Below, piece by piece: positions 44,501 to 64,000 of a stretch of DNA of 64,000 nt. Under the pieces are notes generated by a model. That model was not told where the DNA came from, searched no databases, and was given only the letters and a program-made list of their open reading frames with translations. The number at the start of each line of letters is the position of its first letter. Within the stretch, counting starts at the first letter, position 1. The position numbers and the translations under genes were made by a program. Source of the stretch: Escherichia coli (GTDB lineage: Bacteria > Pseudomonadota > Gammaproteobacteria > Enterobacterales > Enterobacteriaceae); assembly GCF_044324875.1 (NCBI RefSeq), contig NZ_CP172185.1, one strand, 5' to 3'.

Positions 44501-45286
44501 ATCTTCTTGCAGTAAAACGAATCTTCCCGACCATGATTAGCGGGCAGGAGCGTCTTGCCTGTATGGATGATGCCGCCAGGCTGCGCGATGCTCTCGGCGT
44601 ACGACTACCAGAGTCACTGCCAGAGATTTATTTGCACCGAGTCAGTTACCCGCTTCGCGACCTCTTTCTGCGCTATCTCCGGGCTCATGCTCTGGTCACG
44701 TCTGAACAACTGGCTCATGAGTTTAGTCTCGGTACTGCCATTGTCGAAGAGCAACTTCAGCAACTGCGCGAACAGGGGCTGGTGATGAATCTGCAACAAG
44801 ACATCTGGGTGAGCGATGAAGTATTTCGTCGTCTGCGTTTGCGCTCGCTGCAAGCCGCCAGAGAAGCGACACGTCCCGTTGCGGCCACGACCTATGCGCG
44901 ATTGCTGCTGGAACGTCAGGGCGTATTACCCGCCACCGATGGTAGCCCGGCACTCTTTGCCTCAACATCGCCAGGCGTTTATGAGGGCGTGGATGGCGTG
45001 ATGCGGGTGATCGAACAGCTTGCTGGCGTTGGTTTACCCGCCTCACTCTGGGAAAGCCAGATCCTGCCTGCCCGCGTACGCGACTATTCGCCAGAAATGC
45101 TCGATGAATTACTGGCAACCGGTGCGGTTATCTGGTCGGGGCAAAAAAAGCTGGGTGAAGATGACGGTCTGGTGGCACTGCATCTACAGGAATATGCCGC
45201 AGAATCGTTCACTCCCGCCGAAGCAGATCAGGCGAATCGTTCGGCGCTGCAGCAAGCGATAATCGCTGTTCTGGCTGACGGAGGTG
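41584..45286 (+). pseudogene. lhr: ATP-dependent helicase Lhr, inactivated by an in-frame TAA (43030-43032) and truncated by prophage insertion at about 45286
   Basis: ORFs 41584..43032 and 43099..45297 share one frame. They are joined by DEW-TAA-SRVRRAAPWKDLP, where Lhr has a sense codon. DEAD-box motifs are present (APTGSGKT, DEVH, SATV). Lhr-like sequence ends after ...AVLADGG, which is about 1234 of about 1538 codons. Confidence 0.9.
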
Positions 45287-45294
45287 ATCAGACA

Positions 45295-45327
45295 TGAGAT
45301 AAATGAAGGGGGATCCGTGAGATAAAT
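45295..45327 (+). repeat. two direct copies of TGAGATAAAT at the prophage terminus (candidate transposase end-binding sites)
   Basis: Copies lie at 45295-45304 and 45318-45327, 23 bp apart, within 45 bp of the lhr junction. A degenerate third copy GATAGATAAG lies at 45391-45400. Confidence 0.5.
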
Positions 45328-45480
45328 AACGAATTGGAGTGGGTTAACATGGGTTCTGGTGAACAGAACTGAAATTCTTTTCCGCTATACGATAGATAAG
45401 TCGGGCATTGAAATCATCCTTCCTGGCAACTTAGAATCGAGTTTGCTGAAACATGACCCGCAACAAAAAGGATGATTCCA

Positions 45481-45642
45481 ATGACTACTCAAAACAATAA
45501 GCATGATAGCCTGGATTACTCAGAAAAGCCCAAAAGCAAGCACATCGTGACGTTCGAGCGCGATTCCGGTAGAAAAGGAGAATCGTCTTCCTCTGCCAAT
45601 AAAACCACTATGCCGGCAGCCCCTGCCCCAGGGAAAAAATAA
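45481..45642 (+). CDS. possible 53-aa hydrophilic protein (unsupported small ORF)
   Basis: ATG at 45481 is preceded by AAAGGA. The product MTTQNNKHDSLDYSEKPKSKH...PAAPAPGKK is low-complexity. The ORF is below the 60-aa track cutoff and converges on the 45646 gene with a 3-nt gap. Confidence 0.2.
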   Translation: MTTQNNKHDSLDYSEKPKSKHIVTFERDSGRKGESSSSANKTTMPAAPAPGKK

Positions 45643-45645
45643 ACA

Positions 45646-46278
45646 TCATTCATCGTTCGTTGCACGAACGCGCCTGATCTCCACTCTGGCAATCTGATCT
45701 GCTGGAATATAGGTTGCCAGAGCTCCCCAGTACTTATCAACCACGCCTTTATACTCTTCCCATTCGTTACTGCCTGAAGGGCTGCTGTGCGTGACGTAAA
45801 GAACCATATCGCCTTTATTCCCCAGGGTAAACGGACCGTTAGGCCACTCTTCAAAGTTCCCTGGCAGCCGTGACATCATACCGGAACCATCGCGAAGAAT
45901 CACTCTGACCTCGGTAACGCTGAAGCCTGTTTGATCAAACATTGCCTGCCATGCTGAGCTGGTATCGTCAGACCATGAAATATCATTATTCCACAGTAAT
46001 CTGTACATCCATTTGCGACCGTACCTGCGCCACCACGCACCGCATGTAACGGCACACAGAAGTGCTGGTGGTGTTGCCAGCCAGGCATTCAGACCTGCCC
46101 ACATAACAGCCTGGTAAGCCATCATTGCTGTCAGGCCAAAAATCAGCGAAGAAAAAGTCACCTCAATGGGCTTGTGGTGATCCTTCAGTCCCACATTCGC
46201 AATAAAATACCCAATATAGCCACTGGTCAGGGTCACCAGTGTTGCCCATGGCAGATTTAACAACGAAACGTCAAACAT
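45646..46278 (-). CDS. prophage left-end accessory membrane protein (about 3 TM N-domain plus about 110-aa soluble C-domain), function unknown
   Basis: ORF 45646..46356 trimmed to the ATG at 46278, preceded by GGGAGA, giving 210 aa. Hydrophobic segments include LVTLTSGYIGYFIANVGL, FSSLIFGLTAMMAYQAVMWAGL and PPALLCAVTCGAWW. It lies downstream of the mor terminator and is the last gene before the phage end. Confidence 0.7.
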   Translation of the reverse strand: MFDVSLLNLPWATLVTLTSGYIGYFIANVGLKDHHKPIEVTFSSLIFGLTAMMAYQAVMWAGLNAWLATPPALLCAVTCGAWWRRYGRKWMYRLLWNNDISWSDDTSSAWQAMFDQTGFSVTEVRVILRDGSGMMSRLPGNFEEWPNGPFTLGNKGDMVLYVTHSSPSGSNEWEEYKGVVDKYWGALATYIPADQIARVEIRRVRATNDE

Positions 46279-46316
46279 ATTTTCTCCCTGCATCCTGAAT
46301 ACTAAAGAGAGAGCAT

Positions 46317-46350
46317 AAAAAAAGCACGGTAAGGGGTCTACCGTGCTTTT
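46317..46350 (-). terminator. rho-independent terminator ending the early operon after mor
   Basis: Stem GCACGGTA / TACCGTGC (46324-46331 and 46339-46346) with a 7-nt loop. On the minus strand it is followed by 7 T (A-run 46317-46323). It starts 43 nt downstream of the mor stop. Confidence 0.65.
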
Positions 46351-46392
46351 ATACAATAAGGAGATTTTTGAAAGGACTTTAACAAGCAGGAA

Positions 46393-46791
46393 TTATCTGG
46401 ATTTGTTAACGTCTTTCGTCTCCTCTGGCAGATCTTCATCAAACAACCTGCCCTGCATCCGATCCAGTTCTTCTTTTCTGACCCGCTTAACCACGCTGTA
46501 GACCCACTGAAGCGAAACACCAAACTTGCGGGCCAGTTCGTGGTGGTTGCGTCCGTTAAACTCCCTGAAGATTTCCCGGTCGCGCTGACTGACCTTCCAT
46601 ACCATGCCCATCGGGAAATAAACGTTTTGCCCGCCCCAGACCTGCATCATTCGGTTCGCGACGGCCTGACCAATCTGGTCGGCAATTGCGGGCTCAATAT
46701 CAATAATCTCGCGAACGGTCTCAGAGGTATGCTGTGCCAGCTCCACCAGGAGTTCCGGCCCTTTACTTCGAAACTGATTCAGGTCGCTCAT
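46393..46791 (-). CDS. mor: Mor-family transcriptional activator
   Basis: 132 aa. The C-terminal half (GGQNVYFPMG...REFNGRNHHELARKFGVSLQWVYSVVKRVR) resembles the phage Mu Mor/C HTH region. Confidence 0.85.
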   Translation of the reverse strand: MSDLNQFRSKGPELLVELAQHTSETVREIIDIEPAIADQIGQAVANRMMQVWGGQNVYFPMGMVWKVSQRDREIFREFNGRNHHELARKFGVSLQWVYSVVKRVRKEELDRMQGRLFDEDLPEETKDVNKSR

Positions 46792-47215
46792 GTTTTACTC
46801 CCGCAGCTCTGTGCTGCCACTTCTTCAGTTTCTCAATAACACTGCTTGCCTGTTCAGTATTGAGCCAGCGCAGGGCGCTGATGCCCGTTTCCCGCTTGAT
46901 CCACCGCGCTAATGCATTTTCTGAACGGTCACGAACAATGCCGGCAGCAGCCATTTCAAGCCATAGCGCACGGATTTTCCTGGACTGCGGATGGTTATCC
47001 AGCGGTAAACCGGAGCTGGCTTTTCCGGCAGGCTTAACGCGAAAGCCTTTCCTTTTCATGGATTCCAGCACGCAGTTTAGTTGTGTGGTATCCATTCCTT
47101 TGGTTGAGGCTTTACCGGTCAGCCCCTGTAACATCTGGCGATAGGTGTCTTCATCCATACCCAGTTCATTACGGGCAATATGAATGAGCTGGATAAGACG
47201 TTGTTTAGTCATCAT
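46763..47215 (-). CDS. GemA-like (Mu gp16, DUF1018) regulatory protein
   Basis: ORF trimmed to the ATG at 47215, preceded by AAGGAG, giving 150 aa. The motifs LIQLIHIARNELGMDEDTYRQML and QSRKIRALWLEM are typical of the GemA family. It sits next to mor, as in Mu. Confidence 0.7.
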   Translation of the reverse strand: MMTKQRLIQLIHIARNELGMDEDTYRQMLQGLTGKASTKGMDTTQLNCVLESMKRKGFRVKPAGKASSGLPLDNHPQSRKIRALWLEMAAAGIVRDRSENALARWIKRETGISALRWLNTEQASSVIEKLKKWQHRAAGVKHERPESVSK

Positions 47216-47420
47216 CGTTGCTCCTTTTACCTGCGCCACCGATATAATCGACATATAAAGGAAGCGCCACAGGCCAGCACAGGAACATCACCGACCAGCT
47301 AATCCAGTAGCCGGCACCACTGTAACGTGAATAAAACCCTGAACGGCGGTGCAGTTCAGCAGTACACCAACCGACAAAACAATACCAGAACAGGGCACAT
47401 ACAACAGATTCAGCCGTCAT
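47205..47420 (-). CDS. small two-TM membrane protein, unknown function
   Basis: 71 aa from the ATG at 47420 (MTAESVVCALFWYCFVGWCTAEL...ISWSVMFLCWPVALPLYV). It overlaps both neighbours, consistent with translational coupling. Confidence 0.5.
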   Translation of the reverse strand: MTAESVVCALFWYCFVGWCTAELHRRSGFYSRYSGAGYWISWSVMFLCWPVALPLYVDYIGGAGKRSNDDD

Positions 47421-47640
47421 TCTGAATATCCCCCCAACTGATATGAATATTACGGGCAGCAATGACAGGGTCGTTATTCCACCATGCACCTGACATGTAT
47501 TTTTCAACCTGTTCGCGTCCGGCAATAACACCAATTGTGATCCCCGGCCTGACGTTCTTAAAAAAGGCGCGGGCAAAAAGGTATCTGGCAGATATTCGGC
47601 AGGCTTTTAATTTCCGGCTGTTACCTGATAGCGTAATCAT
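47410..47640 (-). CDS. hypothetical early protein
   Basis: 76-aa ORF whose ATG overlaps the upstream stop (ATGA). No motif was recognised. Confidence 0.5.
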   Translation of the reverse strand: MITLSGNSRKLKACRISARYLFARAFFKNVRPGITIGVIAGREQVEKYMSGAWWNNDPVIAARNIHISWGDIQNDG

Positions 47641-48320
47641 CTGGCCTCCAGTTTCTGTTGTTCCTGCCCACTGACCGGGCGGTGCAGTCTGACGTTCTGC
47701 CCTTCACGAAACCCCGCATAGCGCGAGGCGTCGCCATTGCGGCTTCTTCCCGGTTTACGCGCCCTGGTGGTTTGCGTCTGCGGGTATTTATGTTCCAGCC
47801 ACTGCTGCATCAGTTCACGCTCATCATCGGTCAGGGCAAAGGACTGTATTTCACTGATAACGGCCAGCACCCAGCCTTCGGCAAACTGGTCTCCACGGCT
47901 GGTGCGGGTGGCGGTTTTTATTCTTTTGTTCTGTGCACTGATATACTGCTGACGCGCCTTTTTCAGCTGACGGGCCAGCACTTCCCAGGTGTATGCAGCC
48001 AGTGCCGCACGTTCCCGGTTGCCGTAGAACCCCACAGACGGATGCGTGCCGGGGTGAATGATGGAGTTAACACCAAATACCTCGCGGATGATGTTCATCA
48101 GGCCTGGCATGTAGCGCGGTGGACGGAGACTGCCTGTCGGCCAGTAGTGACTGATGGTTTCATCAATATCACTCATAGCAATGTCGGAATGTGTGATGCC
48201 GTGAACATCCATCAGTTTACGGGCTCGGCGCAGTGCCAGAGCGGCCTCGTGCGGGTTGCCGGATGCGGCCAGCGCCAGCAACTTTTTCAGTTTCTCAATG
48301 TGTTTATTCTGGTCTGTCAT
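47637..48320 (-). CDS. DUF2786-like early protein
   Basis: ORF trimmed to the ATG at 48320 (ATGA overlap with the upstream stop), giving 227 aa. The N-terminus IEKLKKLLALAASGNPHEAALALRRARKLM is the DUF2786 signature as I recall it. Confidence 0.6.
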   Translation of the reverse strand: MTDQNKHIEKLKKLLALAASGNPHEAALALRRARKLMDVHGITHSDIAMSDIDETISHYWPTGSLRPPRYMPGLMNIIREVFGVNSIIHPGTHPSVGFYGNRERAALAAYTWEVLARQLKKARQQYISAQNKRIKTATRTSRGDQFAEGWVLAVISEIQSFALTDDERELMQQWLEHKYPQTQTTRARKPGRSRNGDASRYAGFREGQNVRLHRPVSGQEQQKLEAR

Positions 48321-48532
48321 TGTTCTGTATCTCCGGTATTTTTCTGCCGTTTCCATGCCCGGACAGCGTCGGACAGCTCTTTCAGGCTGTATGCTGCTTT
48401 AAGCTTTTCCCATAACCACTGTGTTGTTATGTGCATCAGCAGGGCAGCCAGGGCTGCCCCCGCACTGAGGCATGTCGCCAGGCCAGTAAGAATCAGTATC
48501 CATGCGGTGATTTCCCTGAGTATGTCAGCCAT
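48317..48532 (-). CDS. small single-pass membrane protein
   Basis: 71 aa with the TM segment ITAWILILTGLATCLSAGAALAALLM. Confidence 0.5.
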   Translation of the reverse strand: MADILREITAWILILTGLATCLSAGAALAALLMHITTQWLWEKLKAAYSLKELSDAVRAWKRQKNTGDTEQ

Positions 48533-48546
48533 TGAATGCCTCCCGG

Positions 48547-48843: not shown

Positions 48844-48852
48844 GCCGCGCCC

Positions 48853-49316: not shown

Positions 49317-49413
49317 GATTTAATTCTCCTCTGTTTCCGGCGTGCAGAAGCCCGCGGCGCTGACGCCGGAATAAAAAAGAAAATGTTTTTATTAAATAAT
49401 TAACGTGGTGTGT

Positions 49414-49944
49414 TTACTGCACATCCTGCTCAAAAGGAATTATTGAAAAATCCTCAATGTCGCTTTTAATGGAAATACCGGGAATATTTTTCACGGCCTC
49501 TTTTTCATTCAGGATAGCGTCTTTATTTATTTCCTCTTTTACACGAATAAAGCGCTCAAGCCCCAGACGTCTCAGTAATTCAATAACATTATCCGCCCCA
49601 CGGATACTGACTGATGGCGGACGGTTTCGCCACTGCACCTCGCCGGTGGTAAGGTTAGCGAACTTCACCTTCCCGTTGCCGGTCAGTTCATCACGGTGCG
49701 CCTCACACCATGTCTGGATACCGGACTGCAGTTCGGCCATGCGTTTTTTCAGGCTCTCGGTGAGCGGGGCATAACGTGCGGTGATATCGCCAATGGCGTC
49801 ATTCATTTCTGTTTCAGCCCTGACCAGTTCACGTTGTGCGTCACCGAGTAGTCTGATTCCCTCAATGACCTCTTCGCGTGTCCCTGGTACCCAGAGTGCC
49901 GCTGCGGCCTTGATACGTTTTGCCCCTTTTGTACTTTTTGCCAT
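49414..49944 (-). CDS. gam: host-nuclease inhibitor Gam (Mu Gam / Ku-like)
   Basis: 176 aa. It is collinear with Mu Gam from my memory of that sequence: MAK..KRIK.AAA, ETEMNDAI, WCEA.RDELT..GKVK.ANL.TG, W..RPPSVSIRG, RLGLERFIR, EDFSIIPFEQ. Confidence 0.9.
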   Translation of the reverse strand: MAKSTKGAKRIKAAAALWVPGTREEVIEGIRLLGDAQRELVRAETEMNDAIGDITARYAPLTESLKKRMAELQSGIQTWCEAHRDELTGNGKVKFANLTTGEVQWRNRPPSVSIRGADNVIELLRRLGLERFIRVKEEINKDAILNEKEAVKNIPGISIKSDIEDFSIIPFEQDVQ

Positions 49945-49971
49945 ATTTTATGATTTCTCCGGTTGTGCTGA

Positions 49972-50243: not shown

Positions 50244-51410
50244 TTAAACTCCTTTGACAACGTCAGCGTTGACCTGTGGAACCCCGATTTCAGCGGCCAG
50301 ATTCATGGCGGCTATTACCAGGTTACTGACGGCCAGCGGATACAGCAGGCTGACCATATTTTTACGATGACTTCCCGGATTGCTCAGGCGGGCACGTATG
50401 GCATCCACTGCGCTGGCGTCCATAATGTCCGTCAGTTGTTTACCGGCCCGTTGCAGTTTGAACGTCAGAAATTCTTCAAGGTTATTGTCCAGAGGCAGAA
50501 GTTCGACCACCTCACAGCGCTGAACGACTTCACGGACTTCCATATTGCGTTCAGACAGTTTTGTCGCCAGTTCCGGCTGGCCAATCAGCACGATGGACAG
50601 CAGTTTTTTGAAACCGGACTCCAGCTCAAAAAAGCGTTTGAGGTGTTTCAGTGTCGGAATGGGCAGACTGTGGGCCTCCTCAATCACCAGAACGTGGCTG
50701 AACCCCGCCTGGCTGCTGTCTTTCAGGACGCGATGCAACTGGCGAAAGCGGGCGTCCTGACTGCGTCTGATGCTTTCCAGTGGTGCGATGGTACTGATAA
50801 TGGCTTCGGCAATAGCTGCTGCCTTCAGGGTTTTCCCTTTCACATCGTTGTCTTCCATAGCGATGATGTATGGCTCGATAACAATTACCGGCGCATTCTC
50901 GCGGTTAATACGTTCAGTCAGGTCGCGGCGCAGCGTGGATTTACCCGCACCGGACTCACCGATGACGGCCATAAACCCACCATGACGGGCTGTCTGGTAC
51001 AGCGCCTCACGCACGTAGCGAATGTCCGGGGTGGTGAACACATCATCAGAACCCTGCATGGCTTCATCGGCGAACGGGTCACGGAAAAGACCAAACGCTT
51101 TTTTGGTTGCTGGAAATAACACCTGTTTTTTGAGTAACATATTCTCTTCCTCACTGAGGCTCGTTTTATCTGTGGTACCCGCTGTACGGGGCGTGGCCGC
51201 GCCCTGTACAGCATCAAAACTCTTCGTTGTATCAATCCCCTGACTTTCCAGCCAGGACGCAAGACGCCGGCGCACTTCTCCGGGGCTGGTGCGGGGCCAC
51301 GCGTTATGATTCACAATCTGGGCCAGCGTGGCCTCAGAAACATCGACAGCTCTCGCCGCCACCGCCTGTGGAATACGGGCCTCTTTCAGTTGCTGCTTCA
51401 GTACCAGCAT
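50244..51410 (-). CDS. transposition ATPase (MuB analogue, ExeA/AAA_22-type)
   Basis: ORF trimmed to the ATG at 51410, preceded by GAGGAGGG, giving 388 aa. It has an N-terminal HTH-like segment, Walker A GESGAGKST and Walker B HVLVIEEAH. It lies directly downstream of the transposase gene. Confidence 0.85.
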   Translation of the reverse strand: MLVLKQQLKEARIPQAVAARAVDVSEATLAQIVNHNAWPRTSPGEVRRRLASWLESQGIDTTKSFDAVQGAATPRTAGTTDKTSLSEEENMLLKKQVLFPATKKAFGLFRDPFADEAMQGSDDVFTTPDIRYVREALYQTARHGGFMAVIGESGAGKSTLRRDLTERINRENAPVIVIEPYIIAMEDNDVKGKTLKAAAIAEAIISTIAPLESIRRSQDARFRQLHRVLKDSSQAGFSHVLVIEEAHSLPIPTLKHLKRFFELESGFKKLLSIVLIGQPELATKLSERNMEVREVVQRCEVVELLPLDNNLEEFLTFKLQRAGKQLTDIMDASAVDAIRARLSNPGSHRKNMVSLLYPLAVSNLVIAAMNLAAEIGVPQVNADVVKGV

Positions 51411-51420: not shown

Positions 51421-53190
51421 TCAGTTGCCGTTAACAATGCTGATAACGCTGCTGCGGGCCGGCGTGGTCAGCGTGGCCATGACTTCATCCAGTGCGGCTT
51501 CCGGTACGCCGTCCGGGTACTGTGCTGTTAACTGGCGGTAATGTTCCGGCGTCCAGGTCAGGCCGTCGGCGCTGAACTTATCGCGCAGGGCTTTCGCGGC
51601 CTCCACATGAGTCATGGGACGCTGTTCAGTGCGCGGTCCGCGTACGTCAGAGGCCTGACCACGCTTCGGTATACAGGCCGGAAGTGTGGCGTCATCAATA
51701 TGTTTATACGGGTCAAGCCGCCCGCCGAACGGCAGCGCCTTCGCCTTGCGTGCGGCAGCTGCATCTGCGGCGTTGTCTGTACCGGTGACCAGCGCTTCGG
51801 TTTCTTTTGCCGCCATCTGCGCCGGGGTTTCCGGCAGGGCTTTGTAACTTTCGCCAAATACCGCCGCGCCTTCAGCAAAGCCAAACTCGTTCTTTCTGAC
51901 CTCTTCGACCAGGAAGAACGTCTCGTGGCCGTCCTCACCGGTCAGAACCACCTGTGCCACATCGCTGCGCCACGGGTTACGGGTAATCATCAGTTTTTCA
52001 CCGACCAGTACGCCCGGTACCGTTGATACGTCAAATTCAGTGCCCCGGAACGAGACACGAAGTTTTGGCGTGACTTTGCGGAGTTCTGGTGCCGCCACAG
52101 CCAGTTCACGACATACCTCAACGGAAGGCGCTTTTTTCAGCTGCTCAGCAGTAATCTTCAGCCAGATATCCGTGCGGGTTTTACCGTGGCGGCTGTGAAC
52201 AGCCGTGGCGTTAAAGTGGCTGCGCCATTTCGCGGCCAGCGCGTTGAGTTCTTCCAGACTGTGAACCGGCCGGAACTTCAGACCCGGCTCCAGCTTGCGT
52301 TCGATAATGTCACGCGCCTTTTCCACCTGTCCGGTGGCGCGGGCGTTATGCGGCTTGTGCGCTATCAGGTCGATGCCCAGTGAGCGGCACATGTTTTTCG
52401 TCATACCCGCGGTGTTTGCCGAGCCGGGGTCGAGATAGAGTATTTTTGGCACGCCGTGCAGCACGTCTGCGCCGCCACGCTCCTGCATGGCGTTGATAAG
52501 CACAGAACACAGGTTCTCACCGGATTCCGCACCCGTCACATACTCAACGTAAATCCAGCCGCTGGCATGGTCGGTAATCTCGTAACTCCACACGCGGTCA
52601 CTGGCGATACGGGCAAGGTTAGCGGGCTTGTTTTTGTAGAATTTCGCGCTGTCCATCACCTGCAGCCCTTTATGTCCATTGCTCAGGTAGTAAAGCGTGC
52701 AGAGTGAGGCGTCAATCTGCCAGACATGATTGGGGTGCAGACTGGCCACTTCGGTATGCGGTGCAGGGGCATCCAGTTGTTCCGGGTGCAGGCCATAGTT
52801 ACGCAGGGCACGACTGATGGCATCTTCGGACAACGGGAAAAACTCACCGGTGGTTTCATCTGTTCTGCCTGCGGAGATAAAGCCGTTAGCCCGCAGGGTT
52901 TCCACTGCATCCGCGATGGAATAGAGACGCTTACCGTTCTTGCGGGTGGCCTCACGTAGTGTGGCAGATATCAGCGCGGCTTCGTCGCGGGTCAGGGTGC
53001 TGCGTCCGGCATCGGCGCGTTTTTTGCGTTTATCAGTCACAGAGACCTCCTTCAGCCTGCGCAGCAGAGTGGCGCGGGACATGCCAAGTTCAGCACAGGC
53101 AGCGTCGTATATTGCACCGCGTTTACCATGCCCCGCATTACGTGCCGCGCGGGCTGTTTCAACAAGTTTTTCAGTCAGTGCCGGGGTCAT
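51421..53190 (-). CDS. DDE transposase (MuA analogue, rve/integrase core)
   Basis: 589 aa with an N-terminal HTH (MSRATLLRRLKEV). The catalytic triad candidates are D in VWQIDAS, D in LYLDPGS and E 36 residues later (GQVEKA), which is the D-x35-E spacing. Confidence 0.9.
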   Translation of the reverse strand: MTPALTEKLVETARAARNAGHGKRGAIYDAACAELGMSRATLLRRLKEVSVTDKRKKRADAGRSTLTRDEAALISATLREATRKNGKRLYSIADAVETLRANGFISAGRTDETTGEFFPLSEDAISRALRNYGLHPEQLDAPAPHTEVASLHPNHVWQIDASLCTLYYLSNGHKGLQVMDSAKFYKNKPANLARIASDRVWSYEITDHASGWIYVEYVTGAESGENLCSVLINAMQERGGADVLHGVPKILYLDPGSANTAGMTKNMCRSLGIDLIAHKPHNARATGQVEKARDIIERKLEPGLKFRPVHSLEELNALAAKWRSHFNATAVHSRHGKTRTDIWLKITAEQLKKAPSVEVCRELAVAAPELRKVTPKLRVSFRGTEFDVSTVPGVLVGEKLMITRNPWRSDVAQVVLTGEDGHETFFLVEEVRKNEFGFAEGAAVFGESYKALPETPAQMAAKETEALVTGTDNAADAAAARKAKALPFGGRLDPYKHIDDATLPACIPKRGQASDVRGPRTEQRPMTHVEAAKALRDKFSADGLTWTPEHYRQLTAQYPDGVPEAALDEVMATLTTPARSSVISIVNGN

Positions 53191-54811: not shown

Positions 54812-55000
54812 TCAGGCTGCCTGAGCTGTTGATTTCAGCCCCAGTTTCACGGCGATTTCATGGGATTTACCGTAACGTGCTTTGCTCTGCCCATTGAGAA
54901 CGCGGTATACCTCATTGCGGTTGTAGCCGTTTTCTTCTGCCCAGCGGGTGAAAGTGATCCCGCGCTGGCGGAAGAGAGCTTTGACTTGTTCTGCAGTCAT
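54812..55000 (-). CDS. small HTH protein, first gene of the early operon (Ner/Cro functional analogue, BcepMu gp16-like)
   Basis: 62 aa, preceded by AAGGAG and divergent from the repressor gene. The HTH-like segment is FTRWAEENGYNRNEVYRVLNG. Confidence 0.6.
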   Translation of the reverse strand: MTAEQVKALFRQRGITFTRWAEENGYNRNEVYRVLNGQSKARYGKSHEIAVKLGLKSTAQAA

Positions 55001-55100: not shown

Positions 55101-55439
55101 ATGATCGGGTTACGTATTAAAGAAGAAAGAGAGCGTCTATCTCTTACACAGCAAGGGTTGGCTGATGCTATCGGTGTGGCAAAGAGAACTTTTATTGATT
55201 GGGAAAAAGATCGCACTTCTCCTACTGCAGTGCAGTTATCTGCACTATCAGAAATCGGTGTAGATGTTTTGTATGTAGTTACTGGGGTGCGGAGTCAGCC
55301 TGTTGTTGCACCTTATATGTCACAAGAAAAGAAAGAGTTAATGGATGCATTCGACGAGATGAGCCCCGAACAACGGAGGGCAATTCTTGAGGTCGGCAAA
55401 GTCTTCATTCAACCCAAACCAAGCAAACTCGCAGGCTGA
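55101..55439 (+). CDS. XRE-family prophage repressor (no peptidase domain)
   Basis: ORF 54948..55439 trimmed to the ATG at 55101, giving 112 aa. The HTH_3 motif is LRIKEERERLSLTQQGLADAIGVAKRTFIDWEKDRTSP. Confidence 0.8.
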   Translation: MIGLRIKEERERLSLTQQGLADAIGVAKRTFIDWEKDRTSPTAVQLSALSEIGVDVLYVVTGVRSQPVVAPYMSQEKKELMDAFDEMSPEQRRAILEVGKVFIQPKPSKLAG

Positions 55440-55557: not shown

Positions 55558-56322
55558 TTAGAAATTGCAGATCACCAGCTCACGGCGTGGAGTTGATTTG
55601 CCTGCCAGACTGTAGTTGATGTTCACTGTCTGTATGTTCAGTCCAGTGAACACCTCGCGCATCTGCGGGATGTCGTTCACCGAAATTATCATCTTTCCTC
55701 TGATGCACCGGGCCAGCTCTGCCAGCCGCGAGTAGTTCCCTTCAGGAAAATCCACACCATAGCCTTCTGTACCCAGATACGGCGGGTCACAGTAGAACAG
55801 CGTGTGCGGACGGTCATAGCGCTCAATGCACTGTTGCCAGTCCATGTGTTCTATCACCGTTCTGGAAAGCCGCAGGTGTGCCGCTGACAGTTCTTCCTCG
55901 ATACGCAGCAGGTTGAAGCGTGGCGGGGATGTGGTGGAGGTGCCGAAGCTGTGCTCTGCCACCTTGCCGCCAAACGCCTGCTTCTGGAGGTAGTAGAACC
56001 GTGCTGCACGCTGGATATCCGTCAGTGTTTCTGTCGGGGTGATCTGCAGCCATTTGTAGATCTGCCGGCTGACCAGCGCCCATTTGAACTGGCGGACAAA
56101 TTCTTCCAGATGATGTTTTACCACCCGATACAGATTTACCAGTTCACCATTGATATCGTTAATGACTTCGAGCTTACCAGGTGTCTTAAGAAAATAGAGC
56201 GCTGCTGCGCCGCAGAACGGCTCCACGTAACATTCATGCGCCGGAAACAGCGGCAGGATGTGTTTTGCCAGGCGACGTTTGCCACCAATCCATGGAACGA
56301 TGGGTAATGTCTGCATTTTCAT
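55558..56322 (-). CDS. dam: Dam-type N6-adenine DNA methyltransferase (D12 class), orphan
   Basis: 254 aa with the AdoMet motif EPFCGAAALYF and the catalytic DPPY motif (FYCDPPYLG). No adjacent nuclease gene was recognised. Confidence 0.9.
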   Translation of the reverse strand: MKMQTLPIVPWIGGKRRLAKHILPLFPAHECYVEPFCGAAALYFLKTPGKLEVINDINGELVNLYRVVKHHLEEFVRQFKWALVSRQIYKWLQITPTETLTDIQRAARFYYLQKQAFGGKVAEHSFGTSTTSPPRFNLLRIEEELSAAHLRLSRTVIEHMDWQQCIERYDRPHTLFYCDPPYLGTEGYGVDFPEGNYSRLAELARCIRGKMIISVNDIPQMREVFTGLNIQTVNINYSLAGKSTPRRELVICNF

Positions 56323-57787: not shown

Positions 57788-58138
57788 ATGAAACCATTCA
57801 CTTCCCTTATCGTTGACGTACAAAAAACCCGCCTGCGTGGATGGCTTGTTGCGGCCGTGCTGCTGCTCCTCATCATCGCGCTGGTCTCACCCCAGCAGTT
57901 GCCGGTGGTGGTGTACAAGCTCTCTCTCATCTCCCTCGCCGCCGTGCTCGGCTACTGGCTGGACCGCTCACTCTTCCCGAAGGCCCGTCCGGGGCAGTAC
58001 CTGAAGCATGACGAGCGCCTCATGGCTGAGGGGCGCTGGCCCGTACAGACCGGCCTTCACCTGGTGTTTTCTGCTGCGTTAATCCGCCGTGCACTGATTG
58101 TTGCAGCTGTCTGTCTGGCTGTTGCGATGGGGCTTTAA
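57788..58138 (+). CDS. putative holin (3 TM)
   Basis: 116 aa, preceded by AAGGAGA. It has three hydrophobic segments and sits immediately upstream of the endolysin gene. Confidence 0.6.
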   Translation: MKPFTSLIVDVQKTRLRGWLVAAVLLLLIIALVSPQQLPVVVYKLSLISLAAVLGYWLDRSLFPKARPGQYLKHDERLMAEGRWPVQTGLHLVFSAALIRRALIVAAVCLAVAMGL

Positions 58139-58140
58139 TC

Positions 58141-58875
58141 ATGAACTGGCCACAGAGCACCTGGATTGTATGCATGTCCCTGAAACTGGCTTTCGAAGCC
58201 TTTCTGGTCTTCATCAGAACCGAACGCCTGTCAGTCCGTGTCGGGACCTTTCTGGTTCATATGGCATGGGTATTCTTTGTCGCAATGTTGCTCTGGTGTG
58301 GCGGCTTCTTCAGTCAGGCCCGCGCAGCGCAGCCTCCGCAGGCTGCGCTGCAGTATCGCGATGATGTGATCCGTAATGCCCGGCTTGAATGGGGGCTGTC
58401 TGCGCCGGTGGCCGATTTCGCCGCGCAACTGCATCAGGAAAGCGGCTGGCGGACTGATGCGGTCTCGCCGGTGGGCGCTCAGGGGCTGGCGCAGTTTATG
58501 CCCGCCACCGCTGACTGGATAAGCCAGTTGATGCCGGCGTTGAGCAGTCGTGAGCCGTTTAATCCGGCATGGGCCATCCGGGCGCTGGTCAGCTATGACC
58601 GCTGGCTGTGGCAGCGCATCAGCGCCGCCAGTGACTGCGAGCGTATGGCCATGACACTGTCGGGCTATAACGGTGGTCTGGGTTGGGTACAACGGGACAG
58701 GCGGCTCGCATCACAGAAAGGTCTGGACAGCACCCGCTGGTTCGGACATGTCGCCACGGTGAATGCCGGACGCAATGCTGCCAGCTGGCGGGAGAACCGC
58801 CATTATCCGCAGCGCATCCTGCACGAACTGGCCCCCCGTTATCTGACATGGGGGGGCGGCAGCTGTGTGGACTAA
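58141..58875 (+). CDS. SLT-domain lytic transglycosylase endolysin with an N-terminal hydrophobic anchor or signal
   Basis: The ORF carries the catalytic ES motif (QLHQESGW), GLAQFMPATA and YNGG. Its N-terminus contains MAWVFFVAMLLWCGGFFSQARA. The start codon is ambiguous (58141 or 58261). Confidence 0.8.
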   Translation: MNWPQSTWIVCMSLKLAFEAFLVFIRTERLSVRVGTFLVHMAWVFFVAMLLWCGGFFSQARAAQPPQAALQYRDDVIRNARLEWGLSAPVADFAAQLHQESGWRTDAVSPVGAQGLAQFMPATADWISQLMPALSSREPFNPAWAIRALVSYDRWLWQRISAASDCERMAMTLSGYNGGLGWVQRDRRLASQKGLDSTRWFGHVATVNAGRNAASWRENRHYPQRILHELAPRYLTWGGGSCVD

Positions 58876-59167
58876 CCTGCTAAAAAATCTGCCGTGGCGC
58901 AGTCTGCTGCTGGCAGTGCTCATAAATGCTTTTCTGATTGGACTTTATTACCTGGGCTACAAAAGTGCAAAATGGCATCTGAATCGATCGCAGTTTGGCA
59001 TTCGAATCGATCATGATTTGGCATCCATCTCCGATCACAGTTTGGCATCACAATCGATCACGATTTGGCATGCTTCCGATCATTGATTGGCATCCTGCCA
59101 GTCACTCCGGGAATTAACTCTTTTCACCACAGTCTCCATTGCCGTGTTTAAACCAGTGGAGACGTCA

Positions 59168-60733
59168 ATGTCCAGAAAGAGAAAATCCAGGAGCACTATG
59201 GAAACCTGTTTTAAGATCCTTCAGCTCAAGTTCGACAAGAAGCTGACTAACCGTTGTATCGGACTGACGTTACACATCAGCGCCTCAACCGTTTTTGAGG
59301 TTCTTGCCCGCTTCAAAGCCTCTTCTCTGTCATGGCCATTACCTGCTGATATATCCCATGACACGCTGGAGAAACTCATTTTTCCGCCCAAAGACACCTT
59401 TGCATCAGAGCTTGTAATGCCTGACATGTTGTACTTCGATACGGAAATGAGAAAACCAGGTGTGACGCGGCAACTGTTGTGGATGGAATACAAGGCACAG
59501 GCGGGTAACAAAGCGATGGGATACTCGCACTTCTGCCGTTGCTACCGGGAGTGGAAAAAAACGCGACGTCTCTCCATGCGCCAGGAGCATCGTGCCGGCG
59601 AAAAGCTTTTTATCGACTTCTGTGGTCCTACGGTTCCTGTTATTAATCCGGACACCGGTGAGATACGCCGCGTGGCAATCTTCGTGGCCGTAATGGGGGC
59701 GTCCAACTATACCTACGTTGAAGCGTGCGAAGGTCAGGACATGATGTCATGGTTAAATGCCCACAGCCGTTGCCTGACCTTCCTGGGCGGCGTACCGAAG
59801 CTGCTCATCCCCGATAACCTCAGAAGCGCAGTGAAAAAGGCCGATCGATATGAGCCTGTCATCAACGACAGTTATCAGGCACTGGCTGAGCACTATGGCA
59901 CGGTTATCATCCCGGCCCGACCACGCAAACCTAAAGATAAACCAAAAGCAGAAAACGGCGTCCTCATCGTTGAACGATGGCTTCTTGCCCGCATCCGTAA
60001 TGAAACCTTCCACACGCTCAGGGCGCTGAATGCGCGCCTTAGGGAGTTACTGACAGACATGAATAACCGGCCAATGAAGGGGTACGGCAATCAAACCCGT
60101 GCAGAACGCTTCCGCATACTGGATGCGCCAGCACTCTCTCCGCTGCCTCTGGCACCTTATGAATACACGGAATACAAAGCTGTGAAGGTTGGCCCTGACT
60201 ACCACGTTGAATATGCCCGTCACTGGTACTCCGTTCCACACGAACTGGTCGGTCAGCGTCTGTCACTGAAGGCGGGGCAGTCGGTGGTACAGCTCTGGCA
60301 CAAGGGGCAGTGTGTGGCGCAACATCCGCGCAGCACACATGAATATAAACACACAACCAATCCGCTTCACATGCCAGAGCGCCACCGGCAGCACGGGACA
60401 TGGACACCGGAACGCCTGATCGAGCAGGGAAAACGTACGGGCCCGTCCACAGGCCGGGTGGTTGAATCCATGCTGAAGGCAAAACCCCATCCGGAACTGG
60501 CTTATCGTGCAGTTCTGGGGCTGCTGGCACTTCAGAAAAAATACGGCCCGGAACGGCTGGAAAAGGCCTGTTACGTTGCCCTGCACTATAACGCCCCTGA
60601 CAGACGCTTTATCGACAATCTGCTGCGTCACCATCGGGAGAACCTGGAGCTTCCATTATCCCGCCAGGGCGAACAACATCCGGCATATGCTTCAGAGCAT
60701 GAAAACCTGCGTGGTCCGGGCTACTACCACTGA
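59168..60733 (+). CDS. istA: IS21-family transposase IstA
   Basis: ORF trimmed to the ATG at 59168, preceded by GGAG, giving 521 aa. It has an N-terminal HTH and a DDE/rve core (LFIDFCG ... LLIPDNLRSAV ... PKAENGV). Confidence 0.88.
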   Translation: MSRKRKSRSTMETCFKILQLKFDKKLTNRCIGLTLHISASTVFEVLARFKASSLSWPLPADISHDTLEKLIFPPKDTFASELVMPDMLYFDTEMRKPGVTRQLLWMEYKAQAGNKAMGYSHFCRCYREWKKTRRLSMRQEHRAGEKLFIDFCGPTVPVINPDTGEIRRVAIFVAVMGASNYTYVEACEGQDMMSWLNAHSRCLTFLGGVPKLLIPDNLRSAVKKADRYEPVINDSYQALAEHYGTVIIPARPRKPKDKPKAENGVLIVERWLLARIRNETFHTLRALNARLRELLTDMNNRPMKGYGNQTRAERFRILDAPALSPLPLAPYEYTEYKAVKVGPDYHVEYARHWYSVPHELVGQRLSLKAGQSVVQLWHKGQCVAQHPRSTHEYKHTTNPLHMPERHRQHGTWTPERLIEQGKRTGPSTGRVVESMLKAKPHPELAYRAVLGLLALQKKYGPERLEKACYVALHYNAPDRRFIDNLLRHHRENLELPLSRQGEQHPAYASEHENLRGPGYYH

Positions 60734-60749
60734 CAGAAGGAACAACAGT

Positions 60750-61505
60750 ATGAGTGATAACCTGTTAAACAAACTGACCCAACTGAAACTCCCGGCGATG
60801 GCCGGGAGCCTGATACGGCAGCGGGAAACGCCTCAGACCTACGACGAACTGTCGTTCGAGGAAAGGCTGACGCTGCTGGTTGATGACGAGCTTCTGAGCA
60901 GGGAAAACAGCCGTGTGGCACGGTTGAGAAAAAATGCCGGCCTGAAATACCAGGCAACACCGGAAGGGCTGCGCTATCCGGCCTCAAGAGGTCTGCGGGC
61001 TGAACAGATGAGAGAACTGCTGAACGGCCACTACATAACCCACAGGAAAAACCTGCTGATAACCGGTCCGACAGGATGTGGCAAGAGCTGGATAGCCAAT
61101 GCGCTGGGCGAACAGGCATGTCGACAGAAACACAGCGTCCGGTACTGTAGAACCGGGCGATTACTGGAACAACTGGCTCAGGGACGTGTTGATGGCAGCT
61201 GGCTGAAATATCTGAAACAGTTGCAAAAAATACAGGTTCTAATCCTGGACGATCTGGGGCTGGAACAGTTAAGTAACGCCCAGTGTAATGACCTTCTGGA
61301 GCTCATAGAGGATCGTTACGGACAAAGCAGCACGATAGTGGTAAGCCAGTTCCCGGTAGATAAATGGCATGGTCTGATGGAGAACCCAACAACAGCAGAT
61401 GCCATCCTGGACAGACTGGTACATAACTCACACCGAGTGGTCCTTCAGGGAGAGTCACTGAGGAAAAATCCCCCGGTAGTGGAAAGCAGCGAAAAAACGC
61501 GTTAA
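60750..61505 (+). CDS. istB: IS21-family helper ATPase IstB
   Basis: ATG at 60750, 16 nt after the istA stop, giving 251 aa. Walker A is GPTGCGKSW and Walker B is VLILDDLG. Confidence 0.9.
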   Translation: MSDNLLNKLTQLKLPAMAGSLIRQRETPQTYDELSFEERLTLLVDDELLSRENSRVARLRKNAGLKYQATPEGLRYPASRGLRAEQMRELLNGHYITHRKNLLITGPTGCGKSWIANALGEQACRQKHSVRYCRTGRLLEQLAQGRVDGSWLKYLKQLQKIQVLILDDLGLEQLSNAQCNDLLELIEDRYGQSSTIVVSQFPVDKWHGLMENPTTADAILDRLVHNSHRVVLQGESLRKNPPVVESSEKTR

Positions 61506-61856
61506 AAAGCGGTAGAAAAAGTTAAGTTCCCGGTTGATCGAATGGATGCGAATCGCTGATCGGACTTCGATGCCAATCCGTGATCGAATAGAGCGGAATA
61601 CGCAAAAGCGGGCATGAAAACGCCACGCGCGACGGCGATAAGGCGATCAGTGAGTTGCAGTCAGCATTCGACACATACAAAACGGAGCAGGCAATGCTTG
61701 AGAACGCTGCATTGCGAGCATGGGCAAAACGGTATCAGGAGCAGGTGGCCGCTGGGCAGCAGGCTGAGGCCGGTTATCTTGAGCAGATTGCTCAACTGGA
61801 GAGTCAGAACAAACAACTACAGGGGCAAATTAACGATGTCACACAGCGCTGGATTG

Positions 61857-62123
61857 ATGAAAAAGGTAAGAGCCATCCCATTGAGTGCGTGTTTACTCGC
61901 GGTTTCGTGCGCCAGTACAACGCCGCACTCGGGTATGACAACGCATCCGTCGACACCGGTCATTCAGACTCAGTTGCCGCCACTGGCACCCGCTCTGGCA
62001 CAGCGACCGGGCAACCTGAAACCACTGACACCCGGTTACGCGATTCGGGTGTCTCCCAGCGTGACGTTCTCGCCAACATCATCGACAACGCAGGACAATG
62101 TCGTCGCTGGCGGAACCAGATAA
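61857..62123 (+). CDS. o-spanin Rz1 lipoprotein, embedded in the +1 frame of Rz
   Basis: The ATG at 61857 gives MKKVRAIPLSACLLAVSCAS, a signal sequence with a lipobox-like AVSC, followed by a proline-rich 88-aa product. It lies wholly inside the Rz C-terminal part. Confidence 0.7.
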   Translation: MKKVRAIPLSACLLAVSCASTTPHSGMTTHPSTPVIQTQLPPLAPALAQRPGNLKPLTPGYAIRVSPSVTFSPTSSTTQDNVVAGGTR

Positions 62124-62157
62124 ACGCGTTGCTGGATGAACGGGAAGGATTACAGAA

Positions 62158-62484
62158 ATGACACTGCAGGTTGAATTCTGGACGGTGGTGGGCTTTCTCA
62201 TCACCTTCATGAGCTTTGTTGGCGGTATGGCCAAATGGCTGTTCAGTAAAGCGGAGGAACGTCAGGCTGCACGTTTTGCCTCTCTTGAGCAGTCACTGCA
62301 GCAGTCCGCCTCCAGTTGGGGCGAGCTGGAAAAAGAATTGATGCGATTTAAAGCGGATTTACCGCTGAATTATGTCCGTCGCGAGGATTATATCCGTGGC
62401 CAGACAGTCATCGAGGCCAAACTGGACGCGCTTTACAACAAACTGGAAGTGGTACAGCAGTACCGCAATACCGGAGGTCAATAA
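62158..62484 (+). CDS. membrane-anchored coiled-coil protein (Mu gp25 position, possibly DUF2730)
   Basis: 108 aa with an ATGA overlap with the Rz stop. The N-terminal TM segment is FWTVVGFLITFMSFVGGMAKWLF. Confidence 0.55.
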   Translation: MTLQVEFWTVVGFLITFMSFVGGMAKWLFSKAEERQAARFASLEQSLQQSASSWGELEKELMRFKADLPLNYVRREDYIRGQTVIEAKLDALYNKLEVVQQYRNTGGQ

Positions 62485-62795
62485 TGGTCGATATTACCCG
62501 GGTACGCCGTGAATCCCTGCGCTGGAGTCTGCTGGTTGCCCTTAACAAAACCCGCCCTTACACCGCCAGCGAGACGCTGCTGCTGGAAGTGTCCCGCGCC
62601 ATCTACCCGGACACCACGCAACTGGAACTGCGCCGTGAGCTTGATTACCTGGCAGATCGCAAAATGGTGGAACTGGAGAGGAGACCGTCCGGTGACTGGT
62701 TTGCCGATCTGAGTCGCCTTGGTGTGGATATTGTGGAATACACCGTGGAATGCGGCCCCGGTATTGCCCGCCCGGAAAAATACTGGAGTGAGTGA
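62484..62795 (+). CDS. hypothetical late protein (Mu gp26 position)
   Basis: 103-aa ORF translationally coupled to both neighbours. Confidence 0.5.
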   Translation: MVDITRVRRESLRWSLLVALNKTRPYTASETLLLEVSRAIYPDTTQLELRRELDYLADRKMVELERRPSGDWFADLSRLGVDIVEYTVECGPGIARPEKYWSE

Positions 62796-63340
62796 TTATG
62801 GGACGTCGCAGCAGCATTGATTCTCTGCCGAAGGAGGTCCGTCGCTGGCTTGAGCGGGCACTGACGGAGAATAATTTCACCGGCTATGCAGAGCTTGAAA
62901 GTCTGTTGAAGGAAAAGGGGTACAGCATCACCCGCTCTTCCCTGCAGCGGTTTGGCTACAAAATGGAGCAGCAACTGGCCCGTGTGCGGGCGGCAACCGA
63001 GGCAGCGCGTCTGCTTGCCCGGGAGGCCGGAGACGATCCTGATGACCGTTCAGCCGGACTGATAACCCTCGTCCAGACCGAAATGACGGATATCCTGATG
63101 CGCCTGCAGGAGTCGCGGGAAAACGACGATCCCTTCGCCCGGGCAAAACTGCTGGCAACGGCTTCAAAAAATATCGCCACACTGACCCGCGCCTCGGTCA
63201 ACCTCAAGCGCTATCAGGCAGAAGTCAGAGAGAGGGTTGAACGTGCTGCCGCTGCCGCCGAGAAAATTGCCCGTAAGGGCGGGCTCTCTGCGGAAGCCGT
63301 ACAGGCACTGCGCCGGGAAATTCTGGGGGTGGCGTCATGA
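62792..63340 (+). CDS. Mu gp27-like small terminase subunit (DUF3486)
   Basis: 182 aa. The N-terminus GRRSSIDSLPKEVRRWLERAL and the position directly upstream of TerL fit the family, as recalled from memory. Confidence 0.65.
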   Translation: MIMGRRSSIDSLPKEVRRWLERALTENNFTGYAELESLLKEKGYSITRSSLQRFGYKMEQQLARVRAATEAARLLAREAGDDPDDRSAGLITLVQTEMTDILMRLQESRENDDPFARAKLLATASKNIATLTRASVNLKRYQAEVRERVERAAAAAEKIARKGGLSAEAVQALRREILGVAS

Positions 63341-64000
63341 CGGAGCTGCCGCCGCACATTCCTGACACCGCGAGTTATGAGACACCGCCGGTTCTGTTGC
63401 CTTACCAGCAGCGCTGGGTGGCAGATACCTCTCCGCTTAAGGTGATGGAAAAGAGCCGTCGTACCGGTATTACATGGGCTGAGGCATCCGATAACGTACT
63501 GACCGCAGCCTCTTCTGCGCCTGCAGGCGGGATGAATGTGTATTACATCGCCTATAACCAGGATATGACCGTCGAATACATTCAGGCGTGTGCGATGTGG
63601 GCGCGGGCATTCAACTATGCGGCCAGTGAAATTGAAGAAGGATTCTGGGAGGAGGACGACGACGATAAACACATCAGGACTTACACCATCAAATTTCCTG
63701 ACTCCGGCTTTCGCATTGTCGCGCTCTCCAGCCGCCCGTCTAACCTGCGTGGCCGTCAGGGTATTATTGTTATCGACGAAGCGGCGTTCCATGAGCAACT
63801 GGACGAACTGCTGAAAGCGGCGCTGGCGATGCTTATCTGGGGGGGCAAGGTACGCGTTATCTCCACCCATGACGGTGACGACAATCCATTCAGTACGCTT
63901 ATCGGAGATATCCGTGCCGGACGTCAGGGAGGCAGCGTACATCGCATCACTTTCCGGGAAGCCGTATCTGAGGGGCTGTTCCAGCGCGTTTGTCTGCGCA
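63337..64000 (+). CDS. large terminase subunit (Mu gp28-like), N-terminal 221 codons; continues past the window
   Basis: The frame from the ATG at 63337 (ATGA overlap) is open to the window edge, so the ORF track misses it. It has a Walker-B-like IIVIDEAAF and the motif LLPYQQRW typical of TerL N-termini. Confidence 0.75.
   Translation, partial: MTELPPHIPDTASYETPPVLLPYQQRWVADTSPLKVMEKSRRTGITWAEASDNVLTAASSAPAGGMNVYYIAYNQDMTVEYIQACAMWARAFNYAASEIEEGFWEEDDDDKHIRTYTIKFPDSGFRIVALSSRPSNLRGRQGIIVIDEAAFHEQLDELLKAALAMLIWGGKVRVISTHDGDDNPFSTLIGDIRAGRQGGSVHRITFREAVSEGLFQRVCLR

What the first reader, a model, noticed from the sequence alone, without database searches (positions are those of the whole stretch)
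45285..64000. Transposable Mu-type prophage inserted inside the lhr helicase gene
The Lhr reading frame is recognisable up to ...AVLADGG at about 45286 and stops three codons later. Everything downstream is phage. On the minus strand lie Mor, a GemA-like protein, Gam, an AAA+ B-like ATPase and a DDE transposase. An XRE repressor, then holin/SLT/Rz/Rz1, a DUF3486 small terminase and TerL follow on the plus strand. Insertion in the middle of a housekeeping ORF, rather than at a tRNA or intergenic att site, is what transposition-based integration predicts. Only about 1234 of the roughly 1538 Lhr codons are present on this side.
Basis: partly seen in the sequence, partly recalled or inferred. Interest (0 to 1): 0.6.

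Follow-up and report, generated by a model that had tools for sequence, protein, structure and literature searches.

The report
BcepMu-like transposable prophage interrupting lhr
An ordinary, already-known type of transposing virus (a BcepMu-like relative of phage Mu) has jumped into the middle of the non-essential E. coli helicase gene lhr, and has since itself been damaged by an insertion sequence.

Summary
The window is E. coli chromosome. Homology to intact lhr stops at 45284, in codon 1234 of 1538, and phage DNA starts at 45285 with TGATCAG.... The phage is a BcepMu-type transposable prophage, not a Mu-type one. Its DDE transposase is 68% identical to BcepMu TnpA and its ATPase 59% identical to BcepMu gp08. 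Neither resembles MuA or MuB by BLASTP. Gene order and terminal repeats match BcepMu.

A near-identical 37.7-kb prophage sits at five other chromosomal sites in complete E. coli genomes, each time flanked by a 6-bp duplication.

The missing right junction turned up in public read assemblies. Run SRR21142071 carries both the identical left junction and ...GCATCA|CGGAGG|AGCCTGG..., followed by the lhr 3' remnant and grxD. So the duplication is CGGAGG.

A 2639-bp IS21-family element (58966-61604) splits the phage Rz spanin gene. A nonsense mutation (Tyr483 to TAA, 43032) also lies in lhr. The nonsense mutation is confined to a sub-lineage, and the IS probably is too.

This is an ordinary, well-understood feature of low interest.

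The parts
41584..45284 (+). 5' part of lhr (codons 1-1233 plus 2 nt), truncated by the prophage. It carries an extra TAA nonsense codon at 43030-43032 (Tyr483 to stop).
45279..45284 (.). Left copy of the 6-bp target-site duplication, CGGAGG.
   Evidence: The right copy is seen in L032 and L028. Both junctions occur in the same run, SRR21142071. A 6-bp duplication was found in 5 of 5 other insertions.
45285..45327 (+). Prophage left terminus: TG end plus two G(A/C)GATAAAT repeats at nt 12-20 and 35-43, the presumed TnpA binding sites. The same layout occurs at the right end and at both BcepMu ends.
   Evidence: (0 expected by chance)
45285..64000 (.). Left 18.7 kb of a BcepMu-like transposable prophage. 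The full element is about 37.7 kb plus the IS. The window ends inside TerL.
45481..46278 (.). Two left-end genes of unknown function: 53 aa on + (45481-45642) and 210 aa on - (45646-46278). BcepMu has no counterpart.
46393..46791 (-). Mor-family transcription activator.
   Evidence: PF08765, 1e-43
46763..47212 (-). GemA / gp16 homologue.
   Evidence: PF06252, 1e-40
49414..49944 (-). Gam host-nuclease inhibitor.
   Evidence: PF07352, 1e-40
50244..51410 (-). TnpB-type transposition ATPase (AAA_22, ExeA-like). 59% identical to BcepMu gp08, no similarity to MuB.
51421..53190 (-). TnpA DDE (rve) transposase. 68% identical to BcepMu gp09, 56% to Pseudomonas phage B3 A, no similarity to MuA.
54812..55000 (-). 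First gene of the leftward early operon: a small HTH DNA-binding protein (BcepMu gp16 family, Ner/Cro-like position).
55101..55439 (+). Divergently transcribed XRE/HTH_3 repressor candidate (BcepMu gp17 position).
55558..56322 (-). DNA adenine methyltransferase (cargo gene). One SNP at 56065 relative to the Ec1117 copy.
57788..58875 (+). Holin (57788-58138) and SLT-type endolysin (58141-58875).
58865..58965 (+). 5' fragment (34 codons) of the Rz i-spanin gene, cut by the IS.
58966..61604 (+). IS21-family insertion sequence (ISSso4-like), 2639 bp, TG...CA ends. istA 59198-60733, istB 60750-61505. 4-bp duplication AAAG (58962-58965 and 61605-61608).
61605..62161 (+). 3' fragment of Rz, with the embedded, intact Rz1 o-spanin ORF at 61857-62123 (lipobox LAVSC, proline-rich).
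62798..63340 (+). Small terminase (DUF3486 / phrog_426).
63337..64000 (+). 5' part of the large terminase, cut by the window end.

Best explanation
A BcepMu-like transposable myovirus prophage integrated into E. coli lhr by DDE transposition.

Mechanism (inferred from Mu and Tn552 biochemistry):
- TnpA (an rve-fold transposase of the Tn552/IS1604 type) binds the paired G(A/C)GATAAAT repeats inside each TG...CA terminus.
- With the AAA+ partner TnpB it joins the 3' CA ends to target DNA with a 6-bp stagger.
- Repair of the stagger produced the CGGAGG duplication and split lhr at codon 1234.

Lysogeny is presumably held by the divergent HTH_3 repressor. The leftward early operon runs from a Ner-like protein through TnpA, TnpB and Gam to GemA and Mor. 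Mor would switch on the rightward late genes: holin, SLT endolysin, Rz/Rz1, terminase, head, and a P2-like tail.

Later changes in the sub-lineage the window comes from:
- An IS21-family element landed in Rz, so the spanin step of lysis is broken and downstream late genes may suffer polarity.
- The already dead lhr picked up a nonsense codon.

Shown here: identity of the parts, both junctions, the 6-bp duplication, multiple insertion sites, the IS. Inferred: the biochemistry, the regulation, the lysis defect.
For: - lhr homology ends at 45284. The empty site in GN25 reads ...GACGGAGG|AGCCTGG....
- TnpA and TnpB are 68% and 59% identical to BcepMu gp09 and gp08, and gene order is syntenic with BcepMu.
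- The terminal architecture TGA-N-G(A/C)GATA(A/T)(A/T)T x2 is shared by both ends and by BcepMu.
- A prophage differing from the window's copy by one SNP apart from the IS (Ec1117), and 100.0%-identical copies in four other genomes, lie at five other sites, all with 6-bp duplications: inaA/yfaH, yhfW, kbl-tdh, kefF and a GntR regulator.
- In run SRR21142071, contig 197 has the left junction and contig 259 has ...GCATCA|CGGAGG|AGCCTGG, then the lhr remnant and grxD.
- No tyrosine integrase is present. The only recombinase is a small serine (Gin-like) one next to the tail-fibre genes.
- IS. Rz family and Rz1.
- The fusion protein without the nonsense codon is on 6-7 contigs. The nonsense version is on 2.
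Against: - The right junction was seen in sister assemblies (SRR21142071, SRR21141407 and others), not in the very genome the window comes from. A later deletion at that end in this strain is not excluded.
- No complete RefSeq E. coli genome has this junction.
- Transposition chemistry, repressor function and the lysis defect are inferred from homology, not tested.
- I could not retrieve Summer et al. 2004 to check what duplication length was reported for BcepMu.
Confidence: 0.95

Rival explanations
1. A genuine Mu-type (Muvirus) prophage that uses MuA/MuB homologues and makes a 5-bp target duplication.
For: Mor, GemA and Gam are Mu-family proteins. The ends are TG...CA. The insertion is in the middle of an ORF.
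Against: BLASTP of the transposase against MuA and of the ATPase against MuB finds nothing (best E 0.46 and 2.4). Pfam finds only rve and no Mu transposase domains. The early operon is inverted relative to Mu. The duplication is 6 bp in 6 of 6 insertions.
Confidence: 0.02
2. A prophage that integrates site-specifically, with lhr as its attachment site.
For: A recombinase gene lies at the right end of the element in related genomes.
Against: That recombinase is a 190-aa serine resolvase/invertase next to the tail-fibre genes, not an integrase. The same prophage occupies at least six different loci with six unrelated flanking hexamers. None of 5,426 complete genomes has it in lhr.
Confidence: 0.01
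3. In this particular strain the element is only a left-end remnant. The right part of the prophage and the lhr 3' end have been deleted or rearranged beyond position 64000, for example by recombination between IS copies.
For: The window stops inside TerL, so the right end of this genome was not seen. An IS21-family element present in multiple copies in many E. coli genomes (up to 23 places per genome) sits inside the prophage and could mediate rearrangements.
Against: Everything present is colinear with, and essentially identical to, the intact Ec1117 copy up to the last base of the window. Sister genomes of the same insertion lineage have an intact right junction.
Confidence: 0.05

Closest known systems
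Burkholderia phage BcepMu (Bcepmuvirus; Summer et al. 2004) and its enterobacterial relatives
   Same: - TnpA is 68% and TnpB 59% identical.
- The gene order is the same: Mor, GemA ... TnpB, TnpA ... leftward; repressor, holin, SLT, Rz with embedded Rz1, lipoprotein, TerS, TerL ... P2-like tail rightward.
- The TG...CA ends carry two GATA(A/T)(A/T)T repeats at the same offsets.

   Different: - The host is E. coli.
- The accessory genes differ: Dam methylase, the 53-aa and 210-aa left-end genes, DUF2786, Gam.
- There is a serine invertase at the right end where BcepMu has an acyltransferase.
- This copy carries an IS in Rz.
Escherichia phage PhiKM (PQ738613), Escherichia phage Phi06_2974 B, Klebsiella phage KP12, and the unnamed prophage in E. 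coli Ec1117, PK8275, F1022, MS1494 and PKF11
   Same: Nucleotide identity is 94.5% to PhiKM and 86-87% to KP12 and Phi06_2974 B. It is 100.0% to the Ec1117-type prophages, and the Ec1117 copy, checked base by base, differs by one SNP.
   Different: The insertion site (lhr) and the IS21-family insertion in Rz.
Escherichia phage Mu
   Same: The lifestyle (transposition, insertion into ORFs), the Mor/GemA/Gam homologues and the TG...CA ends.
   Different: - No detectable MuA or MuB homology.
- 6-bp rather than 5-bp duplication.
- The early operon is inverted.
- The tail module is P2-like.

Pseudomonas phage B3
   Same: The transposase is 56% identical. The early region is inverted in the B3-like way (PMC5977238).
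   Different: B3 is a siphovirus of Pseudomonas with different structural genes. The B3 morphology is from my own knowledge, not tested here.

Membership tests
BcepMu-like transposable phages | rve-fold TnpA of the Tn552/IS1604 type, homologous to BcepMu gp09. | tested here: met
   68% identity over 581 aa, E = 0. Pfam rve. The type is described in PMC2628397.
BcepMu-like transposable phages | ExeA-like AAA+ transposition partner homologous to BcepMu gp08. | tested here: met
   59% identity, E = 3e-167. AAA_22.
BcepMu-like transposable phages | Early operon inverted relative to the late genes, and overall synteny with BcepMu. | tested here: met
   Gene tables of the Ec1117 copy and BcepMu.
BcepMu-like transposable phages | 5'-TG...CA-3' termini with repeated internal transposase-binding motifs. 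| tested here: met
   Left end in the window, right end in Ec1117 and L032, both aligned with the BcepMu ends.
BcepMu-like transposable phages | Integration at many sites, each with a short target duplication. | tested here: met
   Six sites with six different 6-bp duplications.
BcepMu-like transposable phages | Replicative transposition during lytic growth, and host DNA on virion ends. | not testable with these tools
   Needs induction and virion DNA sequencing.
Mu (Muvirus) in the strict sense | MuA-family transposase (Mu DNA-binding and Mu-transposase C domains). | tested here: not met
   No BLASTP similarity. Pfam finds rve only. Mu is absent from the tblastn hits.
Mu (Muvirus) in the strict sense | MuB homologue. 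| tested here: not met
Mu (Muvirus) in the strict sense | 5-bp target-site duplication. | tested here: not met
   6 bp in 6 of 6 insertions.
IS21 family (the element at 58966-61604) | istA (rve plus Mu-transpos_C_2) followed by istB (the IstB_IS21 ATPase), TG...CA ends, short duplication. | tested here: met
   Pfam. PGAP names it ISSso4 family. There are 100% identical full-length copies elsewhere. The duplication is AAAG.
Integrase-mediated (att-site) prophage | Tyrosine or large serine integrase at one end, and a constant att site. | tested here: not met
   No integrase in the annotated element, and the sites vary.

The most novel reading that the evidence does not exclude
Loss of lhr may be tolerated or even favoured in some E. 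coli lineages, and this lineage is domesticating a crippled transposable prophage. lhr is hit here twice, by the phage and by a nonsense codon. Unrelated assemblies carry other lhr-disrupting alleles nearby. The prophage's spanin gene has been knocked out by an IS while its early genes and cargo genes (Dam and the left-end ORFs of unknown function) stay intact.
Probability: 0.07. Interest if true: 0.3.

Novelty: already known. Interest (0 to 1): 0.12.

Why it matters
It matters little beyond annotation.

- It is a clean, fully resolved example of a BcepMu-type transposable prophage in E. coli: both junctions, the empty site, and a 6-bp duplication.
- It shows that 'Mu-like' prophages of this group should not be expected to leave Mu's 5-bp footprint.
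- It gives a small dated series of events in one lineage: phage insertion first, then a nonsense mutation in the dead gene. The IS hit in the phage lysis gene is probably later too, but that was not shown. This illustrates pseudogene and prophage decay.
- lhr is non-essential (my own knowledge), so no strong phenotype is expected.

Tried and rejected
- Exact-pattern scans for the predicted right junction (with a 0-10 nt variable gap) and for the left junction found nothing in genome contigs or metagenome contigs.
- The cluster representative P0001, a 281-aa Lhr C-terminal fragment, only led to contigs that begin inside lhr. These are contig-end truncations and uninformative. The exact allele P0028 was what led to the right junction.
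- Looking up the 73-aa Rz'-IS fusion ORF found no record. I therefore could not list other genomes with the same IS insertion.
- Literature: no held paper gives the BcepMu duplication length, and Summer et al. 2004 is not in the library. The 'Mu-like prophage + lhr' search only hit an unrelated use of LHR, the locus of heat resistance. PhiKM has no paper in the library.
- The PADLOC scan of the unknown cargo ORFs found only the Dam methylase and one marginal hit (SngB, E = 4e-4). I do not interpret either as a defence system.
- I considered whether the L023 allele (GGA to TGA at lhr codon 1234, inside the target hexamer) is an excision footprint. I rejected this because there is no length change and no duplicated hexamer. 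Searching by the 281-aa ORF also selects for disruptions just upstream of it.
Full report
**What is in the sequence**

The window is E. coli chromosome. Positions 1-41583 match core genes (uidA ... rsx ... tyrS ... nemA, gloA, rnt) in more than 5,390 of 5,426 complete genomes. Megablast of 41500-46500 aligns to lhr in 5,425 genomes, but only up to window 45284. No genome covers the remainder.

The translation from 41584 reads Lhr up to ...AVLADGG, then DQT and a stop.

Strain GN25 carries an uninterrupted 1538-codon lhr. It differs from the window at a single base over 3785 nt: window 43032 is A where GN25 has C. This turns Tyr483 (TAC) into TAA. The empty site in GN25 reads ...GCTGACGGAGG|AGCCTGGTTTGC....

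**The phage**

From 45285 (TGATCAGACATGAGATAAATG...) to the end of the window the DNA is prophage.

- Pfam and PHROGs confirm Mor, GemA, Gam, an AAA_22 ATPase (388 aa), an rve transposase (589 aa), an HTH_3 repressor, holin, SLT endolysin, Rz-like spanin, DUF3486 TerS and TerL.
- The transposase is 68% identical to BcepMu gp09, annotated as a Tn552/IS1604-type rve transposase. It is 56% identical to Pseudomonas B3 transposase A. The ATPase is 59% identical to BcepMu gp08.
- Neither protein shows any BLASTP similarity to MuA or MuB.
- Gene order is colinear with BcepMu. This includes the leftward early operon, the divergent repressor, and Rz with an embedded Rz1.
- The KS10 paper (PMC2628397) states that BcepMu-type transposases are Tn552-related rve proteins and that these prophages end in TG...CA.
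- The closest deposited phages are Escherichia phage PhiKM (94.5%), Klebsiella KP12 and Phi06_2974 B.
- 95 complete E. coli genomes carry at least 80% of the 18.7-kb stretch.

**Ends and target duplication**

The left end in the window and the right end in the Ec1117 copy share one layout. Each has TGAT, nine bases, G(A/C)GATAAAT at nt 12-20, and the same motif again at nt 35-43. The composite pattern occurs once in the window, against zero expected by chance. BcepMu's two ends have the same layout.

I read both junctions of five copies in complete genomes. All five match the window's phage at 100.0% identity, and the Ec1117 copy, compared base by base, differs by one SNP at 56065.

| Strain | Site | Flanking hexamer |
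|---|---|---|
| Ec1117 | inaA/yfaH | ACTAGC |
| PK8275 | inside yhfW | ATATCC |
| F1022 | kbl-tdh | GCTTTC |
| MS1494 | inside kefF | TCCTGT |
| PKF11 | inside a GntR/FCD regulator | GAAAGT |

All five are perfect 6-bp direct repeats. The element therefore transposes with a 6-bp stagger, not Mu's 5 bp. The expected duplication at lhr is CGGAGG (45279-45284).

**The other end**

The window stops in TerL, so the right junction had to be found elsewhere.

- Exact-pattern scans of the genome and metagenome collections found nothing.
- The truncated 732-aa Lhr ORF was found in Logan assembly SRR31072984 contig 19, which is 100% identical to window 33099-55297.
- I predicted the ORF that a gene caller would find at the right junction: 281 aa, starting at Met1258 of Lhr. 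That exact sequence is in the collection.
- Among its contigs, L032 (SRR21142071 contig 259) and L028 (SRR21141407, plus four similar places) carry a serine recombinase gene. It is followed by ...GCATTTATCGCGCGGCGCATCA|CGGAGG|AGCCTGGTTTGCAC..., the rest of lhr, and grxD.
- The 1237-aa fusion protein (Lhr 1-1233 plus GDQT, without the nonsense codon) is on 6-7 contigs. One is SRR21142071 contig 197, whose junction sequence is identical to the window's.

Both junctions therefore occur in one sequencing run, with CGGAGG duplicated.

**Secondary events**

Compared with the Ec1117 copy, the window has 2,643 extra bases: an IS plus its 4-bp duplication. The extra DNA at 58966-61604 is an IS21-family element.

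- It encodes IstA (rve plus Mu-transpos_C_2) and IstB. PGAP calls it the ISSso4 family.
- Its ends are TG...CA and its duplication is AAAG.
- Full-length copies at 100% identity lie in other chromosomes and plasmids.
- It cuts the Rz i-spanin gene (phrog_1403) after codon 34. The embedded Rz1 lipoprotein ORF (61857-62123) is intact.

The SRR31072984 contig ends about 27 nt into the IS, as expected for a repeat. The nonsense-bearing Lhr fragment is on only 2 contigs, against 6-7 for the version without it. The nonsense mutation is therefore younger than the phage insertion. The IS insertion probably is too, but that was not shown directly (inference).

**Mechanism**

Shown here: the parts, both junctions, the duplication and the multiplicity of sites.

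Inferred from Mu and Tn552 biochemistry (established knowledge, not tested here):
- TnpA binds the terminal repeats and, with the AAA+ TnpB, transfers the 3' CA ends into target DNA 6 bp apart.
- The repressor holds the leftward early operon off.
- Mor turns on the late genes.

Because Rz is broken, the last step of lysis (outer-membrane disruption) should fail. The IS may also be polar on the terminase and head genes, so this copy is probably defective.

**Rivals**

- A true Mu-type element is excluded by the absence of MuA/MuB homology and by the 6-bp duplication.
- Site-specific integration is excluded by six different sites and the lack of an integrase.
- A truncated remnant in this particular genome cannot be fully excluded, because the window ends at 64000. 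It is unlikely given perfect colinearity up to that point and the intact right junctions in sister genomes.

**Verdict**

This is a known kind of element (BcepMu-like prophages in enterobacteria have been recognised since 2004), and near-identical copies are already in public genomes. Interest is low.

Noticed in passing
window 43030-43032: lhr carries an in-frame TAA (Tyr483 to stop, C to A at 43032). It is the only difference from strain GN25 over 3785 nt. The allele is on 2 public contigs, against 6-7 contigs for the same lhr::prophage fusion without it, so it arose after the insertion.
   Followed up: yes
window 58966-61604: An IS21-family (ISSso4-like) insertion sequence with istA and istB sits inside the prophage Rz spanin gene, with a 4-bp duplication AAAG.
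   Followed up: yes
L023 9929-9931; L024-L027; L030/L031: Other E. coli assemblies without the prophage carry independent lhr-disrupting alleles close to the same place. One is GGA to TGA at codon 1234, inside the hexamer that is duplicated here. Another is a stop at codon 1226. A third splits lhr into 435 + 780 + 281 aa. Part of this clustering comes from how they were found, by searching for the 281-aa ORF.
   Followed up: partly
window 45481-46278: Two genes lie between the phage left end and Mor: 53 aa on + and 210 aa on -. They have no Pfam or PADLOC match and no BcepMu counterpart. They belong to PHROG families of unknown function (phrog_15726 and phrog_12870) and may be cargo genes.
   Followed up: partly
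L002 9222-9794 (Ec1117); L032 144-716: A 190-aa serine recombinase (Gin-like resolvase/invertase) is the last gene before the prophage right end, next to the tail-fibre and tail-fibre-assembly genes. This suggests an invertible host-range segment as in Mu and P1.
   Followed up: no
window 56065: The only SNP (C vs T) between the window's prophage and the Ec1117 copy, over the 16.1 kb they share, lies in the Dam methylase gene.
   Followed up: no
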